The notes beneath the pieces were generated by a model. The model was not told where the DNA came from. It was given only the letters and a program-made list of their open reading frames with translations, and did no database searches. A DNA stretch of 64,000 nucleotides from a virus, in UHGV virus genome UHGV-1351982. One strand, written 5' to 3'. The position numbers and the translations under genes are program-made. Positions 6,219 to 50,536 of this stretch are shown here, in pieces. Position 1 is the stretch's first letter; each line of letters begins with the position of its first letter.

Positions 6219-7431
6219 ACTTATCAAGTAATTGTTTTACCAATTTCTTAAGTTCATCAATTTCTTGCTGTTGCTTTTCAACAACTTCATTAAGTTCATT
6301 AAAAGCATTAACTAGGAGAGCGGTAACACCGCTATAACTTACACCTAAATACTCGCTGTTAGAGATTTTATAAACAGCCTCCGGCAAAACTGCCTGTACA
6401 TCCTGAGCTATTACACTTGCTTCCTCAGAATAAATAGAGTGTTCATCTTCATCAAGATTATTACGTTTAAAATAAGTATAACCCTTAATAGATTTAACTT
6501 TCTCTCTTGCTGTTTTAATCTCTTTTAAATTGGCTTTTAATCTAATATCAGAAGTGCTAACCCATTGAACGCAAGACGCATATCCAGCATCATTAAATGT
6601 GTAGATTGCACCTTTTATGTTAAAATGAGCCTCACAACCCCCGGCACTATATCTAACAACATCAAGGCCAGCAGCCCAGTCACCACCCCATCTAACTACT
6701 TTAAACACGTTTGAGGCAGCATCATCACCTGGTAATTCAACAAGAAGGCCACAAGCGCGATCGGCTTCAGCCTTAGCACGATTTGCCTCAGTAGTAGCAT
6801 CTACAGCCTTATCTCCTGCTTCTACAGCAGAACCAGCCGCATTAGTTTCTGATTCTTTAGCATTTAATTCTGATTGTTTAGCGGAAGCAGCATGTTCTCC
6901 AGCAGTTGTAGCAGCAGCTTCTGCACCTGCTTTTGCTGTTTCAGCACCAGTCTTAGCAGTTTCTGCAGCTGTCTGAGCTTGTTGAGCCGCAGTTTTAGCT
7001 TGTTCGGCAAGTCTACGACTGGTCTCCGCATTTTGAGCAGCTAATTCAGCAGAATTCCTGAATCCTTTAGATTCTTCCGCCGATGTAGCGGATGCTTCAG
7101 CACTCTTTTGTGACAGACCAGCTTGTCTCTCAGCTTCCGCGGCAGATGCCGCAGATTGAGTTGCAGATGTTTCAGAAGAAGTAGCATAAATTGCAGCTAG
7201 GTTCTCCGAGTCCTTAGCATTTGTTTCAGATTCTTTTGCTGCAATCTCAGAATCTTTTGCTGCCGCAGCAGAAGAAGCAGAGGCTTCTACAGCAGCAGTT
7301 AATTCACCAGCAGTAATAGAACTAATAGAATTACCTAAAACTACTGTATATTTAGGATACTTACTAGCAGTAGTTGTAGTGTCATCTATATTCAGAATCT
7401 GCTGTACAATAATTTTAGTTTTAAGTGCCAT
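6217..7431 (-). CDS. ltf: short lateral (L-shaped-type) tail fiber with C-terminal intramolecular chaperone domain
   Basis: Ala-rich repetitive N-terminal part; C-terminal about 130 aa with SDIRLK and EAVY.. motifs resembling self-cleaving intramolecular chaperone (S74-like) domains; position before collar/pb4 as in T5. Confidence 0.55.
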   Translation of the reverse strand: MALKTKIIVQQILNIDDTTTTASKYPKYTVVLGNSISSITAGELTAAVEASASSAAAAKDSEIAAKESETNAKDSENLAAIYATSSETSATQSAASAAEAERQAGLSQKSAEASATSAEESKGFRNSAELAAQNAETSRRLAEQAKTAAQQAQTAAETAKTGAETAKAGAEAAATTAGEHAASAKQSELNAKESETNAAGSAVEAGDKAVDATTEANRAKAEADRACGLLVELPGDDAASNVFKVVRWGGDWAAGLDVVRYSAGGCEAHFNIKGAIYTFNDAGYASCVQWVSTSDIRLKANLKEIKTAREKVKSIKGYTYFKRNNLDEDEHSIYSEEASVIAQDVQAVLPEAVYKISNSEYLGVSYSGVTALLVNAFNELNEVVEKQQQEIDELKKLVKQLLDK

Positions 7432-33177: not shown

Positions 33178-34842
33178 TTATGCAAAGAATTTACCGTTCT
33201 TAAAGTCAATCAATGTTCTTTGACCGTTTGCATAGGTAATTAAATGCGTTTGCGTCCAGCTTGACGCGCCCACGTTGTAGCCCATATCAAGGGAACCAGC
33301 AACGCCAGCGGTATAAACGCCGCCGTAAATGCTAGCCGTATGAGTATGACCAGTGTTAAGGCGTCCCAACTTTTTAAACTGCTTAGGATTGCCCCGACTG
33401 CCGTTAATGCCATTGTGACCATGTACGCCGCATTCAATGCCAGCGATTTTAAACGACTGGTCAGTAGTCAGGAAAATAGCGTTAAATTCGCAACCTGCGA
33501 CACTACGCAAGGCGTAATCTAGCACGTTAAAAGTATCATCCTTTTCAGCAATAGCGGCGTATATAGCAGCGTTTAGACGGTGATACAATTCCGCGTTTGC
33601 GGGATCGTCTTTAATGTTAGCGTTACGATCATCTAACCAGCGGGATAAAGCTAAATCATGGTTAGATTCAACAATGATTGTTTGAGAGAAATCACGCTCC
33701 ATTGATTCTAATACGCGTCCAGTGTCGATAAGATCATCTAGAACCTTGTCACGTCCTGCGGCGTACTGTTTAGCAAGGAATACACCACTAGCGCGGTTGT
33801 GATGGTTACGCGATGTAAAATCATGCACATCATGAATAAACTGATATTTAGGCTTGAGAATATCAAGCAAGCTGTTTTCACTAGCCCATGAAGCAACGGC
33901 GCATTCATCATCTAATTTTTCGGCGTGAATATCACCATATTGCAAGCCTAGAACATGATCGGACGTTTCAAAACATCCGGTAGGCATAGCGCAAACATTC
34001 AAATCATAAAACATTCCGCTTTCGTCCATCGTTTCAAGCTGACGAACAAAAAATTCGCCGTCGTCGTCAAATTCTACCAGCAAAGCGCCGAAATTATGTA
34101 AAGCCTCGGCCTTTTGTCCTGCCTTTTGCTGGATATAGTTTTTAAGCGTAGCCGTTCCGGTTGAATACATACGGCGCACTACTTCACCTTTTAACGCTGG
34201 CACACTTTCAGCGGTAATTTTAGCGTGACCAATTGCCAGACCTTCAATATTTAAAGCCGTGGCGGTTTCTGCGAATCCTGAAAGCGGATAGTCTGCCGTT
34301 GGTAACACGTTAATTTCAGCCATGAAAGCAAAACGGCGATTATTTAAAAATACGTTTTTCTCGCAAATATATTTATTAAATGCGGGATCGTATTTAATGC
34401 CTTCGTTACCTTCTCCATTCTGGAAGCCGTTTTTATTGTAAATGAATTTACTAACCAGCAATTCACCGCCGATATATTCAGCGAATTTTTCCAGACTTGC
34501 TAAAAAGTTTTTATGCGGGAAAGTATTATTTTGAATCGACGTTAGAATAAAACGGCGACCGGATTTAACTTCCCACTGTTCCACGGTACTAGAAACAATT
34601 CCCGCCGCTTCGGGGCGATCATCATTTTTAATCGCCTTTTCAGCTTTTGCCGCTTTCGGTTTTGCTGGCTTATTTGCTTCCAACCAATCGCAAATTGCGG
34701 TTGAATGTTTCGTTGTATCGTAAACAGCTTTTGATATATCGTCGCAAACTTCCAGCTTAGTAGCGCGTAAACGTTTACCGTAGAAATTAAAATCAGCGGC
34801 AAGTTTAACGATCTGGGCTTGTTTTTCTGCGGAAATATTCAT
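33178..34842 (-). CDS. A1: A1-like pre-early protein with metallophosphatase motifs
   Basis: 554 aa (T5 A1 about 556 aa); calcineurin-like motifs GDIHAE and GHTHTASIYGG; in pre-early region next to dmp. Confidence 0.6.
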   Translation of the reverse strand: MNISAEKQAQIVKLAADFNFYGKRLRATKLEVCDDISKAVYDTTKHSTAICDWLEANKPAKPKAAKAEKAIKNDDRPEAAGIVSSTVEQWEVKSGRRFILTSIQNNTFPHKNFLASLEKFAEYIGGELLVSKFIYNKNGFQNGEGNEGIKYDPAFNKYICEKNVFLNNRRFAFMAEINVLPTADYPLSGFAETATALNIEGLAIGHAKITAESVPALKGEVVRRMYSTGTATLKNYIQQKAGQKAEALHNFGALLVEFDDDGEFFVRQLETMDESGMFYDLNVCAMPTGCFETSDHVLGLQYGDIHAEKLDDECAVASWASENSLLDILKPKYQFIHDVHDFTSRNHHNRASGVFLAKQYAAGRDKVLDDLIDTGRVLESMERDFSQTIIVESNHDLALSRWLDDRNANIKDDPANAELYHRLNAAIYAAIAEKDDTFNVLDYALRSVAGCEFNAIFLTTDQSFKIAGIECGVHGHNGINGSRGNPKQFKKLGRLNTGHTHTASIYGGVYTAGVAGSLDMGYNVGASSWTQTHLITYANGQRTLIDFKNGKFFA

Positions 34843-48000: not shown

Positions 48001-48102
48001 ATGAAGTTTTAAAATAAAAGGCCTAAGCCTAGGCCTGTAAAGAAAGAGATAAGGACTACTATCCCTATTGCTATAAATAGCTCACGAGCCATTCCATCAA
48101 AA

Positions 48103-48687
48103 TCAAACATCATATACTCCCATCGCTAAATCTCCAGCATCAATTTCAGATACCACACCAGTTACAGGATCAACAATTTTATTCCACGTCTGAAACTTGC
48201 CAGATACAATATCCTCTAGAGGAATTGGAGTCTTACTCATCTCAAAGGAGACGTTGATATAGCGTTGGTCACGTACAGAATTAGTGTGCACGTGCCCGTG
48301 AATGTTCAGCTTACCCCGAAGTTCCTCTGGATGTAAAGGACAGTGAGATAGCCAAAACTTCTTGCCACCACCAGTCTGCTTACCTAGAGCTTGAATATCA
48401 TCATAAACGTCTACAAGATCTTTAATACGCAGACCCTGACGCTCAGCATCATGGTTGCCCATGATTAACTGGTTAGGCACGTTGTGGATAACCGACTTCA
48501 ATTTGGCCAATCCTTCACGTCCCACGGCACTATCTCCTAGCAGTACAAGTTTTGTACGCTTGCCAATGTGCTTGGACAAAGTATCCAGAATATATTCGTC
48601 ATGCTCTTTCATGTTCTTAAACCACGGACGGAAGCGAAGAGTTCCAGGGTGGTCTAAGTGCAACTCCGACCAGAATTTAACTTTCAT
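48103..48687 (-). CDS. metallophosphoesterase (calcineurin-like)
   Basis: Motifs LLGDSAVGR, IMGNHDAE, GHVH; 194 aa. Confidence 0.6.
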   Translation of the reverse strand: MKVKFWSELHLDHPGTLRFRPWFKNMKEHDEYILDTLSKHIGKRTKLVLLGDSAVGREGLAKLKSVIHNVPNQLIMGNHDAERQGLRIKDLVDVYDDIQALGKQTGGGKKFWLSHCPLHPEELRGKLNIHGHVHTNSVRDQRYINVSFEMSKTPIPLEDIVSGKFQTWNKIVDPVTGVVSEIDAGDLAMGVYDV

Positions 48688-48893
48688 TATTTATTCCTTA
48701 CACATGTGGATGTAATAGTTATGGTATCCCAGAATGGGCCTTTTGTGATCCCAATCTGGATACTAGAATTATCTAGTTTACCATTAGCCACATCGCATAG
48801 CTGTTTGGTATCTTCTGCGGTGAATCGCATACTATTATCATAAGGATTACATCCAGCTAACAGAAATATGGATAAGAATACCAGCTTTTTCAT
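48687..48893 (-). CDS. small lipoprotein (68 aa)
   Basis: Signal peptide with lipobox LLAGC. Confidence 0.4.
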   Translation of the reverse strand: MKKLVFLSIFLLAGCNPYDNSMRFTAEDTKQLCDVANGKLDNSSIQIGITKGPFWDTITITSTCVRNK

Positions 48894-48895
48894 TA

Positions 48896-49192
48896 CTACC
48901 TCTGTTTAGTTAACCAATACATATGGTGCTCATATTGATAGCGATTCCACTTATCTTTAAATTCATTCATATGATTAAAGATATGTTTGGCTAAATCGTT
49001 AGCATTCTCTAGTGTTTTAGCATAAAGTTTTACTGGTTCGCTATTTTCATATGAGATAATAATAAAGAGCCTATTATCTTCTTCAAATGAGGGGGATATA
49101 GATCGTATCCCCTCAACATCAATAAAGCCAGCCCAGCCTAGAGACTCAAAGTTACAATACTTAGTAATTGTTGGTATAATAGGTTTTTCCAT
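48896..49192 (-). CDS. hypothetical protein (98 aa)
   Basis: ORF. Confidence 0.4.
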   Translation of the reverse strand: MEKPIIPTITKYCNFESLGWAGFIDVEGIRSISPSFEEDNRLFIIISYENSEPVKLYAKTLENANDLAKHIFNHMNEFKDKWNRYQYEHHMYWLTKQR

Positions 49193-50070
49193 TACAGAAT
49201 CCTCTGTACACCACAGCTATCATTTTTGTCCGTGGTAAATGTCATAATCTTACCGGCTTCATCATTAACTTGCGCAACCGTCAACTGCCCGTTGAAAACA
49301 CCGCCAGTATCGAGATAAACACGGTTCTTGTACAGAATTGGGTAAGGAACACCAGTGTGACCATGGAATACGAAATCTACACTTTCAACTTCTGGTACTT
49401 CCACAGTCAATTCATCTTTAAATCCTGCATAACGCTGGAAATAGGGATGCTCTGCACCTTGCTTAGACAGATGAAAACCAATTTCCTGAATTACATCACG
49501 ATCCCACAGATACGGCTCAATGTAATAGCTAGGATGATCATTGGGATCATTTTCACTTGCAGCGATATGATCAATAATATCATCCCAATTAGGTGTATGT
49601 ACATCGAATCCAGCATCTTTATACTGAAACGGTATTCCGCCATGAACAACACCGTATTTCTTGCCACGATGGAGTACGGTCATGAATACAGGCATTTTAG
49701 CTGCCATATCTTCTGCGATACCTTTAATTGTATCGGTATCCAGATCATTCATTGCCCACATTCCACCATTATACATCCAGTTGGCGTAGTCACCAGCAAT
49801 CATAAACTGATCATGGTTGCCACGAACGCTACGGAAGCGTGGGTTATATAAGAATTTGGCTAGAACCTGTAAGTTCTGCGGGCCACGGTCGATCAGGTCG
49901 CCAACACAGACAACATAGTCACGCTTTTCTTTATACCCTGCTAGTTTAAGAGCATCTTCCAGCATATCATTACAGCCGTGAATATCTCCTACGAAGAACA
50001 GGTTAACATCATCTGGTACTACTAACATTTCGTGCAGGTTAAATTCTTTTTTCATTATCGAGTCATCCAA
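49192..50070 (-). CDS. Ser/Thr protein phosphatase (PPP-family, lambda-PPase-like)
   Basis: Motifs GDIHG, GDLIDRG, GNHD in canonical order; 292 aa. Confidence 0.7.
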   Translation of the reverse strand: MDDSIMKKEFNLHEMLVVPDDVNLFFVGDIHGCNDMLEDALKLAGYKEKRDYVVCVGDLIDRGPQNLQVLAKFLYNPRFRSVRGNHDQFMIAGDYANWMYNGGMWAMNDLDTDTIKGIAEDMAAKMPVFMTVLHRGKKYGVVHGGIPFQYKDAGFDVHTPNWDDIIDHIAASENDPNDHPSYYIEPYLWDRDVIQEIGFHLSKQGAEHPYFQRYAGFKDELTVEVPEVESVDFVFHGHTGVPYPILYKNRVYLDTGGVFNGQLTVAQVNDEAGKIMTFTTDKNDSCGVQRIL

Positions 50071-50435
50071 TTAGTGTGTTTTTCAGCTTCTGTATCGTTT
50101 GGCTCAAAGACAACGTGACAGTCTACTGCTTCCCAGAAAGATTGACGGATGATAGCATTTTGTTCTGCAATATCCAACTCTTCCCATTCTTCAAGTGTTT
50201 CTAGATCTGTATCAACTTCGGTATCACAGCCCACCAGCCCCAAAGTAACAACAATAGTAACACGGCCTTCACGTTCTTCGGGATAAGCCTCAGCATATTC
50301 CCAAGCAGCTTGCTCAACATAATATTCTTGCTCCTTTTCAGGCAGTGACTTATATTTTTCTTCTGTGATTCCCATTTCTACAGCACGAGTACCACAGACC
50401 ACGTTGTTATGTATTATAAGATATGCGTAATTCAA
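50055..50435 (-). CDS. hypothetical acidic protein (126 aa)
   Basis: ORF downstream of promoter 50467-50495. Confidence 0.4.
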   Translation of the reverse strand: MNYAYLIIHNNVVCGTRAVEMGITEEKYKSLPEKEQEYYVEQAAWEYAEAYPEEREGRVTIVVTLGLVGCDTEVDTDLETLEEWEELDIAEQNAIIRQSFWEAVDCHVVFEPNDTEAEKHTNWMTR

Positions 50436-50466: not shown

Positions 50467-50495
50467 ATTATATCAAAATTTTTAGCAGAAAGCAA
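50467..50495 (-). promoter_or_regulatory. early promoter (TTGCTT-N17-TATAAT)
   Basis: Minus strand; hexamers read directly. Confidence 0.55.
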
Positions 50496-50500
50496 GTAAT

Positions 50501-50528
50501 AAAAAAGCCTAGTCAGCTAAGACTAGGC
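50501..50528 (-). terminator. rho-independent terminator (GCCTAGTC-AGCTAA-GACTAGGC then U6)
   Basis: 8-bp stem; U-run on minus-strand RNA after thioredoxin-like gene. Confidence 0.55.
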
Positions 50529-50536
50529 TTTGGGTA

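What the first reader, a model, noticed from the sequence alone, without database searches (positions are those of the whole stretch)
48103..50070. Two phosphoesterase genes in the early block
A PPP-family Ser/Thr phosphatase (motifs GDIHG, GDLIDRG, GNHD) and a second calcineurin-like metallophosphoesterase lie within 2 kb of each other among early genes. Early expression suggests targeting of host phosphoproteins or signalling nucleotides, possibly defence-related second messengers.
Basis: partly seen in the sequence, partly recalled or inferred. Interest (0 to 1): 0.35.

Follow-up and report, generated by a model that had tools for sequence, protein, structure and literature searches.

The report
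Known T5-type phosphatase and phosphoesterase genes
These are the already annotated lambda-type protein phosphatase and small metallophosphoesterase that T5-like phages carry in one early operon; the finding is ordinary, and nothing supports the proposed role against host defence signals.

Summary
The window is a T5-like phage (Epseptimavirus), 98.8% identical to Salmonella phage JNwz02. It also encodes a 194-aa calcineurin-like metallophosphoesterase (48103-48687). They are orthologues of T5.035 and T5.034, annotated in hundreds of phage genomes.

The phosphatase keeps every catalytic residue, and its model superposes best on lambda phosphatase. The small enzyme keeps four of five motifs. Its first metal-ligand Asp is Glu (E8) in a sub-lineage that includes EPS7, and the gene is still under strong purifying selection (dN/dS about 0.05).

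Both genes lie in a five-gene operon behind a promoter that aligns with T5's annotated early promoter, so "early" is supported by synteny.

The defence-messenger idea has no support. Klimuk et al. 2020 map classical T5 gene C2, linked to RNA polymerase modification, to the phosphatase ORF. In unrelated phages, homologues of the small enzyme sit among DNA replication and recombination genes, without a phosphatase partner. Substrates remain untested.

Interest is low and the genes are already known.

The parts
49192..50055 (-). PPP-family (lambda phosphatase/NinI-like) Ser/Thr protein phosphatase, 287 aa, 32.7 kDa; orthologue of T5.035
   Evidence: Motifs GDIHG, GDLIDRG, GNHD, HGG and GHT are present. 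D24, H26, D53, R57, N80, H81, H138, R186 and H233 are conserved across 28-36 homologues including lambda NinI. Pfam Metallophos 63 bits. phrog_246 E 1e-92. 1g5b E 1.9e-32 by sequence. By fold, 1g5b E 2e-19 and TM 0.81-0.82 normalised on the target. The ATG start overlaps the upstream stop as TAATG.
48103..48687 (-). Small calcineurin-like metallophosphoesterase, 194 aa, 22 kDa; orthologue of T5.034 (COG4186 / aq_1665-like); motif I has Glu in place of Asp
   Evidence: phrog_547 E 4e-53. Invariant H10, G51-D52, G77-N78-H79, H115, H130, H132 and H134; E8 where 30 of 30 homologues have D. AlphaFold pLDDT 91.7. Foldseek best hit 1xm7, E 7e-11. dN/dS 0.03-0.05.
48896..49192 (-). 98-aa ORF of unknown function between the two enzyme genes; present in Epseptimavirus, absent from T5
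   Evidence: No Pfam or PHROG hit. Annotated as hypothetical in EPS7 and JNwz02. In T5 the two enzyme genes abut directly.
48687..48893 (-). 68-aa putative lipoprotein (lipobox LLAGC), same operon
   Evidence: Translation MKKLVFLSIFLLAGC.... phrog_6073 'Rz-like spanin' E 2.6e-26.
50055..50435 (-). First gene of the operon, 126 aa, DUF7167; positional counterpart of T5.036
   Evidence: Pfam DUF7167 29.8 bits. phrog_6798 E 8.6e-76 over the full 126 aa. TTG start at 50435 with GGAGG 7 nt upstream.
50467..50495 (-). Sigma-70-type promoter TTGCTT-17 nt-TATAAT with a TG extension; aligns with T5's annotated (putative early) promoter upstream of T5.036
   Evidence: Alignment with T5 and EPS7 shows the hexamers conserved. 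The sequence was read directly. T5 records annotate this site as 'promoter' and as 'putative early promoter T5P10'. The consensus scan missed it because the -35 hexamer matches only 3 of 6.
50504..50531 (-). Terminator-like hairpin ending the upstream thioredoxin transcription unit
   Evidence: 11-bp stem followed by a T run. Conserved in T5 and EPS7. Annotated as a terminator in T5.
48019..48036 (-). Terminator-like hairpin downstream of the phosphoesterase gene; likely end of the operon
   Evidence: 7-bp GC-rich stem followed by a T run.

Best explanation
The locus is the Epseptimavirus version of the T5 early operon T5.036-T5.035-T5.034, with two extra small genes inserted between the enzymes.

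The 287-aa protein is a lambda-phosphatase-type binuclear (Mn2+) phosphoprotein phosphatase with a complete active site. Relative to lambda it has a lineage-specific helical insertion (about residues 145-215) and a C-terminal beta extension. Its most likely job is to dephosphorylate a host or phage protein during the early phase and so affect the transcription programme. This step is inferred from the published mapping of T5 gene C2 to this ORF, and it is probably an indirect effect on RNA polymerase.

The 194-aa protein is a minimal metallophosphoesterase of the uncharacterised COG4186/aq_1665 type. It most likely hydrolyses a phosphodiester or phosphomonoester on nucleic-acid ends or nucleotides as part of phage DNA metabolism. 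This step is inferred from gene neighbourhoods in unrelated phages.

Shown here: identity, orthology, fold, residue conservation, operon structure and purifying selection. Inferred: both substrates and both in-vivo roles. Nothing indicates that the two enzymes work as a pair.
For: - Orthology and annotation: 98.8% DNA identity to JNwz02. 455 phage records match the region, with both genes annotated.
- Phosphatase active site: complete. Nearest solved structure is lambda phosphatase.
- C2 mapping: the mutation maps to the ORF for the putative 32-kDa Ser/Thr phosphatase. C2 mutants lack an RNA-polymerase-associated 90-kDa protein (PMC7472727). The window protein is 32.7 kDa.
- Operon: terminator, promoter, five abutting or overlapping genes, terminator.
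- Small enzyme: fold and nearest structure 1xm7, followed by YfcE, Mre11, LpxH, MJ0936 and the P. putida MPE nuclease.
- Neighbourhoods of distant phrog_547 members: DNA polymerase, primase-helicase, a DnaD-like loader, a position between the gp47 and gp46 (SbcCD-like) genes, and exonuclease/dCMP deaminase.
- Selection: dN/dS 0.05 against EPS7 and 0.03-0.04 against Asp-type orthologues.
Against: - No substrate has been tested for either protein.
- The C2 mapping is one sentence in one paper. The original genetics papers could not be read here, and the RefSeq T5 record gives T5.035 no gene name.
- In the genome-wide T5 CRISPRi-ART knock-down, T5.034 and T5.035 both score 'Not Fit' (PMC11879866, supplementary file 16). 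That fits poorly with an essential C2 function. However, portal, tail-tube and primase genes also score 'Not Fit', so the screen misses many essential genes.
- The Glu for Asp change at the first metal ligand, together with Ile to Ser next to the motif II Asp, could lower or alter the small enzyme's activity.
- Gene neighbourhood is weak evidence for substrate.
Confidence: 0.6

Rival explanations
1. One reading: one or both enzymes are anti-defence factors that hydrolyse host immune second messengers (cyclic oligonucleotides or cyclic mononucleotides), or that reverse phosphorylation by defence kinases.
For: - Metallophosphoesterases can hydrolyse cyclic nucleotides. Lambda phosphatase itself cleaves bis-pNPP and nucleoside 2',3'-cyclic phosphates (PMC2190708).
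- The genes are expressed early, by synteny.
- Both genes score 'Not Fit' in a laboratory host, as accessory anti-defence genes would.
- A different phage metallophosphoesterase counters host defence, though by degrading host DNA (PMC12287305).
Against: - No similarity to any defence-associated model.
- The fold differs from the known phage messenger-degrading enzymes (my own knowledge).
- Both genes are kept across T5-like phages wherever examined. They are strongly conserved, unlike typical variable anti-defence cargo.
- The mycobacteriophage enzyme family is not specifically related to the small enzyme.
- The C2 mapping suggests a core regulatory role.
Confidence: 0.1
2. The small phosphoesterase in this sub-lineage is catalytically weakened or repurposed, for example as a binding protein or with a changed metal preference. 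The cause would be the Asp to Glu change at the first metal ligand plus Ile to Ser next to the second.
For: - E8 appears where 30 of 30 aligned homologues have Asp.
- The change travels with GDS in place of GDI.
- The Glu codon is shared by 15 phage records and by EPS7, so it is not a sequencing error.
- Inactive relatives with this fold exist; Vps29 appears among the structural hits.
Against: - Glu keeps the carboxylate, and all other ligands are intact.
- dN/dS within the Glu lineage is 0.05 with dS 0.62. This shows the protein is constrained, although it does not prove catalysis.
Confidence: 0.15
3. The phosphatase is really a dinucleoside polyphosphate (Ap4A) hydrolase of the ApaH type, or an RNA end-healing 2',3'-phosphatase, rather than a protein phosphatase.
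For: ApaH models and structures are the next-best matches after lambda phosphatase and PrpA/B. The C. thermocellum Pnkp phosphatase domain is also among the structural hits.
Against: Scores are clearly higher for lambda phosphatase (116 bits) and PrpA/B (96 and 75 bits) than for ApaH (63 bits). All are far below the ApaH equivalog cutoff of 176. The TM-score to lambda phosphatase is 0.81, against 0.66 for the putative Ap4A hydrolase.
Confidence: 0.1

Closest known systems
Bacteriophage T5 T5.035 (putative Ser/Thr protein phosphatase; reported location of classical gene C2)
   Same: 79% identical, same length (287 aa) and same position downstream of the thioredoxin gene and the early promoter.
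   Different: In T5 the phosphoesterase gene follows directly. Here two small ORFs intervene.
Bacteriophage lambda Ser/Thr phosphatase (NinI, PDB 1g5b)
   Same: All metal-binding and phosphate-binding residues, and the fold (TM 0.81-0.82 on the target), at 30-35% identity.
   Different: About 65 residues longer. It has a helical insertion between the HGG histidine and the WDR arginine region, and a C-terminal beta extension. The genomic context also differs: a virulent-phage early operon versus the lambda nin region.
Bacteriophage T5 T5.034 / phrog_547 'phosphoesterase' (COG4186)
   Same: Orthologue by position and sequence, about 52% identity to Tequintavirus versions. It shares the five-block architecture.
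   Different: Motif I Asp is Glu, and Ile is Ser after the motif II Asp in this sub-lineage. The C-terminal tail has diverged.
Aquifex aeolicus aq_1665 (PDB 1xm7), a structural-genomics protein of unknown function
   Same: Closest solved structure: TM 0.68-0.70 over about 190 columns at 26% identity. Weak sequence match, E 0.015.
   Different: A cellular protein with no known substrate, so the match gives no functional transfer.
Mycobacteriophage metallophosphoesterases (A10ZJ24 Gp48, Bxb1 gp47)
   Same: Early-expressed phage metallophosphoesterases. Gp48 has phosphodiesterase and DNase activity and silences host defence genes (PMC12287305).
   Different: No specific relationship: BLASTP E 3.8 and hhalign probability 2%. 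They share the superfamily only.

Membership tests
PPP-family phosphoprotein phosphatases (lambda phosphatase / PrpA/B subgroup) | Motif I GDxHG | tested here: met
   GDIHG at residues 23-27 of the 287-aa protein. D24, H26 and G27 are invariant in 28 and in 36 homologues.
PPP-family phosphoprotein phosphatases (lambda phosphatase / PrpA/B subgroup) | Motif II GDxVDRG (bridging Asp and phosphate-binding Arg) | tested here: met
   GDLIDRG. G52 and D53 are invariant; D56 and R57 are at least 90% conserved.
PPP-family phosphoprotein phosphatases (lambda phosphatase / PrpA/B subgroup) | Motif III GNH[DE] | tested here: met
   GNHD. G79 and N80 are invariant; H81 is at least 90% conserved.
PPP-family phosphoprotein phosphatases (lambda phosphatase / PrpA/B subgroup) | Downstream metal ligands and second Arg (lambda H139, R162, H186) | tested here: met
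   H138 and H233 are invariant; R186 is at least 90% conserved. All three align with the lambda residues.
PPP-family phosphoprotein phosphatases (lambda phosphatase / PrpA/B subgroup) | Fold superposes on lambda phosphatase | tested here: met
   AlphaFold pLDDT 93.4. Foldseek top hit 1g5b, E 2e-19, TM 0.81-0.82 on the target.
PPP-family phosphoprotein phosphatases (lambda phosphatase / PrpA/B subgroup) | Mn2+-dependent hydrolysis of phosphoserine/phosphothreonine substrates | not testable with these tools
   Needs an enzyme assay.
Calcineurin-like binuclear metallophosphoesterase superfamily (small enzyme) | Motif I D-x-H (first metal ligand Asp) | tested here: not met
   E-L-H (E8, H10). All 30 aligned homologues have Asp. 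The Glu is shared with EPS7 and at least 15 records. The replacement is conservative and keeps the carboxylate.
Calcineurin-like binuclear metallophosphoesterase superfamily (small enzyme) | Motifs II-V: GD, GNH[DE], H, GHxH | tested here: met
   G51-D52, G77-N78-H79-D80, H115 and H130-G131-H132-x-H134 are all invariant or nearly so.
Calcineurin-like binuclear metallophosphoesterase superfamily (small enzyme) | Beta-sandwich metallophosphoesterase fold | tested here: met
   pLDDT 91.7. There are 40 PDB hits at E <= 0.001, and all those listed are metallophosphoesterases.
Calcineurin-like binuclear metallophosphoesterase superfamily (small enzyme) | Passes the curated Pfam threshold | tested here: not met
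   Metallophos_2 scores 19.5 bits against a cutoff of 27. The family is recognised by PHROG and by structure instead.
Known phage hydrolases of immune nucleotides (Acb1, Apyc1) | 2H phosphoesterase fold (Acb1) or metallo-beta-lactamase fold (Apyc1); the defining folds are from my own knowledge | tested here: not met
   Both proteins model confidently as calcineurin-like metallophosphoesterases.
Mycobacteriophage Gp48/gp47-type metallophosphoesterase nucleases | Specific sequence relationship to Bxb1 gp47 | tested here: not met
   BLASTP E 3.8. Profile comparison gives probability 2%.

The most novel reading that the evidence does not exclude
The conserved early operon that couples a lambda-type phosphatase with an aq_1665-type phosphoesterase could be a two-enzyme module that removes a host phosphorylated signal, either a protein phosphate mark or a nucleotide alarm molecule. 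The Glu8/Ser53 variant of the small enzyme would then be an adaptation to a different substrate or metal in Salmonella-infecting lineages.
Probability: 0.07. Interest if true: 0.6.

Novelty: already known. Interest (0 to 1): 0.15.

Why it matters
It matters little as a discovery. Both genes are annotated in T5 and in hundreds of relatives, and the protein families are textbook.

The useful residue is a reminder that neither T5-type enzyme has a demonstrated substrate. There is also a published claim that classical gene C2, tied to T5's unexplained early-to-late transcription switch, is the phosphatase. That claim could be tested directly with modern phage genetics and phosphoproteomics.

The natural Asp to Glu variant at a metal ligand is a small ready-made experiment on metallophosphoesterase chemistry.

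Tried and rejected
- Recent tandem duplication of the two genes: rejected. Similarity between them is only at superfamily level.
- Small enzyme belongs to the experimentally studied mycobacteriophage Gp48 / Bxb1 gp47 family: rejected.
- Small enzyme is a decaying pseudogene because of E8: rejected. The Glu codon is shared by independent isolates and dN/dS is 0.03-0.05.
- Similarity to a defence system: none in PADLOC.
- Original C2 genetics papers: PMC355262 and PMC354552 are not held. Searches for further C2 literature found nothing.
- Essentiality from transposon and CRISPRi screens: one preprint has no T5 data. The CRISPRi-ART T5 data call both genes 'Not Fit', but the screen misses many essential genes.
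- IMG/VR scan for the Glu-type motif: 0 contigs, against 10 for the Asp type. This shows only that the variant is the minority form.
- The consensus promoter scan missed the real conserved promoter because its -35 hexamer matches only 3 of 6.
- Pfam does not recognise the A1 orthologue as a metallophosphatase.

Full report
**What the window is.** The 3.9 kb around the finding is 98.8% identical to Salmonella phage JNwz02. It matches 455 phage records, nearly all T5-like Salmonella and Escherichia phages. EPS7 and JNwz02 are classified in Demerecviridae, genus Epseptimavirus. The window holds late structural genes at 1-30 kb and the A1 orthologue at 33178-34842 (phrog_1745). The early block starts at about 42 kb, and a tRNA cluster runs from 59.8 kb.

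**Checking the observation.** Both ORFs are on the minus strand.

The larger one carries GDIHG, GDLIDRG, GNHD, HGG and GHT.
- Pfam Metallophos scores 63.3 bits against a cutoff of 21.5.
- phrog_246 'NinI-like serine-threonine phosphatase' gives E 1e-92.
- Lambda phosphatase 1g5b gives E 1.9e-32.
The ATG at 50055 overlaps the upstream stop codon as TAATG and gives the 287-aa length of the annotated orthologues.

The smaller ORF (48103-48687, 194 aa) hits phrog_547 'phosphoesterase' at E 4e-53.
- It falls below the Pfam threshold (Metallophos_2, 19.5 bits against 27).
- Its only PDB sequence match is aq_1665/1xm7, at E 0.015.

I aligned the phosphatase with lambda NinI, T5.035 and 25 to 35 database homologues down to about 30% identity.
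- D24, H26, D53, N80, H138 and H233 are invariant.
- R57, H81 and R186 are at least 90% conserved, and all align with the lambda catalytic residues.
- The AlphaFold model (pLDDT 93.4) matches lambda phosphatase best: E 2e-19, TM 0.81-0.82 on the target. A putative Ap4A hydrolase, eukaryotic PP1/PP2A/PP5 and the Pnkp phosphatase domain follow.
- Relative to lambda, there is a helical insertion at roughly residues 145-215 and a C-terminal beta extension.

For the small enzyme, H10, G51-D52, G77-N78-H79, H115, H130, H132 and H134 are invariant across 31 sequences.
- The first metal ligand is Glu (SELH), where every other aligned sequence has Asp.
- This is not an error. A 41-nt probe centred on the GAG codon finds 15 records from about ten phage isolates.
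- EPS7 has the same Glu, together with Ser in place of Ile after the motif II Asp.
- In IMG/VR the Asp-type motif occurs in 10 contigs and the Glu type in none.
- The gene is under strong purifying selection. dN/dS is 0.05 (dS 0.62) against EPS7 and 0.03-0.04 against Asp-type orthologues.
- The model (pLDDT 91.7) is closest to aq_1665 (E 7e-11, TM 0.68-0.70). YfcE, Mre11, LpxH, MJ0936, Vps29 and the P. putida MPE nuclease follow.

**Operon and timing.** On the minus strand the order is as follows:
- a terminator-like hairpin at 50531-50504;
- a promoter, TTGCTT-17 nt-TATAAT with a TG extension, at 50495-50467;
- a GGAGG ribosome-binding site and a TTG start at 50435;
- five abutting or overlapping genes: the DUF7167 protein, the phosphatase, a 98-aa ORF, a 68-aa lipoprotein-like ORF and the phosphoesterase;
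- a terminator-like hairpin at 48036-48019.

The hairpin and the promoter align base for base with T5. There the site is annotated as a promoter and, in AY587007, as 'putative early promoter T5P10'. So 'early' is supported by synteny and annotation, not by expression data for this phage.

In T5 the two enzyme genes abut (T5.035/T5.034). In a diverged T5-like contig they are 2.3 kb apart with eight other ORFs between them. Order is conserved, adjacency is not.

**What they probably do.** Klimuk et al. 2020 state that the classical T5 C2 mutation maps to the ORF for a putative 32-kDa Ser/Thr phosphatase. They add that a 90-kDa RNA-polymerase-associated protein is missing in C2 mutants, and that the gene's effect on polymerase specificity is 'likely indirect' (PMC7472727). 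T5.035 and the window protein (32.7 kDa) fit that size; T5.034, at 173 aa, does not. [quoted passage not shown] From my own knowledge C2 is one of the early genes needed for late expression, but I could not read the original work.

Against an essential role, the CRISPRi-ART screen of T5 scores both T5.034 and T5.035 'Not Fit' (PMC11879866, supplementary file 16). The same table also scores portal, tail tube, primase and other plainly required genes 'Not Fit'. The screen is therefore insensitive and does not settle the question.

For the small enzyme the only functional hint is context. Homologues occur in 1099 phage records. Six distant members were examined:
- three lie beside or a few genes from a DNA polymerase gene, one of them directly next to a primase-helicase;
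- one lies next to a DnaD-like helicase loader;
- one lies between the gp47 and gp46 SbcCD-like genes;
- one lies near exonuclease, QueC-like and dCMP deaminase genes.

None of the six has a PPP phosphatase beside it. This favours a nucleic-acid or nucleotide substrate in DNA metabolism, and it argues against an obligate partnership with the phosphatase.

**The defence-messenger hypothesis.** I found nothing in its favour beyond general plausibility. Metallophosphoesterases can cleave cyclic nucleotides, and lambda phosphatase cleaves 2',3'-cyclic NMPs in vitro (PMC2190708). A mycobacteriophage metallophosphoesterase does counter host defence, but it does so by degrading host DNA (PMC12287305). 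That family is not specifically related to the protein here. PADLOC gives no hit. Both genes are strongly conserved. They are present, in the same order, in every T5-like genome examined. That pattern looks more like core early functions than variable anti-defence cargo.

**Verdict.** One conservative change sits at a metal ligand of the small enzyme. The genes are long-annotated orthologues of T5.035 and T5.034, so the finding is already known and of low interest. The anti-defence interpretation is unsupported but cannot be excluded without biochemistry.

Noticed in passing
window 48687-48893 (-) and 48896-49192 (-): Two small ORFs separate the phosphatase and phosphoesterase genes in Epseptimavirus but are absent from T5. 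One is a 68-aa protein with a lipobox (LLAGC) that PHROGs labels 'Rz-like spanin'. The other is a 98-aa protein with no family. The lipoprotein lies far from the lysis genes, so the label is doubtful.
   Followed up: partly
window 50467-50531 (-): A terminator hairpin is followed directly by a T5-type promoter (TTGCTT-17-TATAAT with a TG extension). Both are conserved base for base with T5 and EPS7. The simple consensus scan missed the promoter because its -35 hexamer matches only 3 of 6.
   Followed up: yes
window 48664-48666 and 48529-48531 (-), codons 8 and 53 of the phosphoesterase: The Asp to Glu change at the first metal ligand travels with an Ile to Ser change right after the second metal-ligand Asp (GDS versus GDI). 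This may be a compensating pair in one Epseptimavirus sub-lineage.
   Followed up: partly
L001 (EPS7, NC_010583) about 7222-7300: In EPS7 the phosphoesterase ATG is out of frame because of a 1-nt difference in an A-run. The annotators started the gene at an internal Met, which drops motif I. The cause is either a GTG start or an old homopolymer sequencing error.
   Followed up: partly
window 1-42000: Late structural genes run straight into the pre-early block (A1 orthologue at 33178-34842), and the early block follows. This is the layout expected when the long terminal repeat of a T5-like genome is collapsed or the assembly is permuted.
   Followed up: no
database records MG065642 and protein P0046: A 95.5%-identical genome is deposited as 'Campylobacter phage A148'. 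An 86%-identical phosphatase is labelled Brucella melitensis on a 115-kb contig. Both look like T5-like phages carrying misleading host labels.
   Followed up: no
T5 RefSeq NC_005859, T5.036: The 81-aa product upstream of the phosphatase is labelled 'major head protein' in RefSeq. That is implausible for its size and its early position. The window counterpart is a DUF7167 protein.
   Followed up: no
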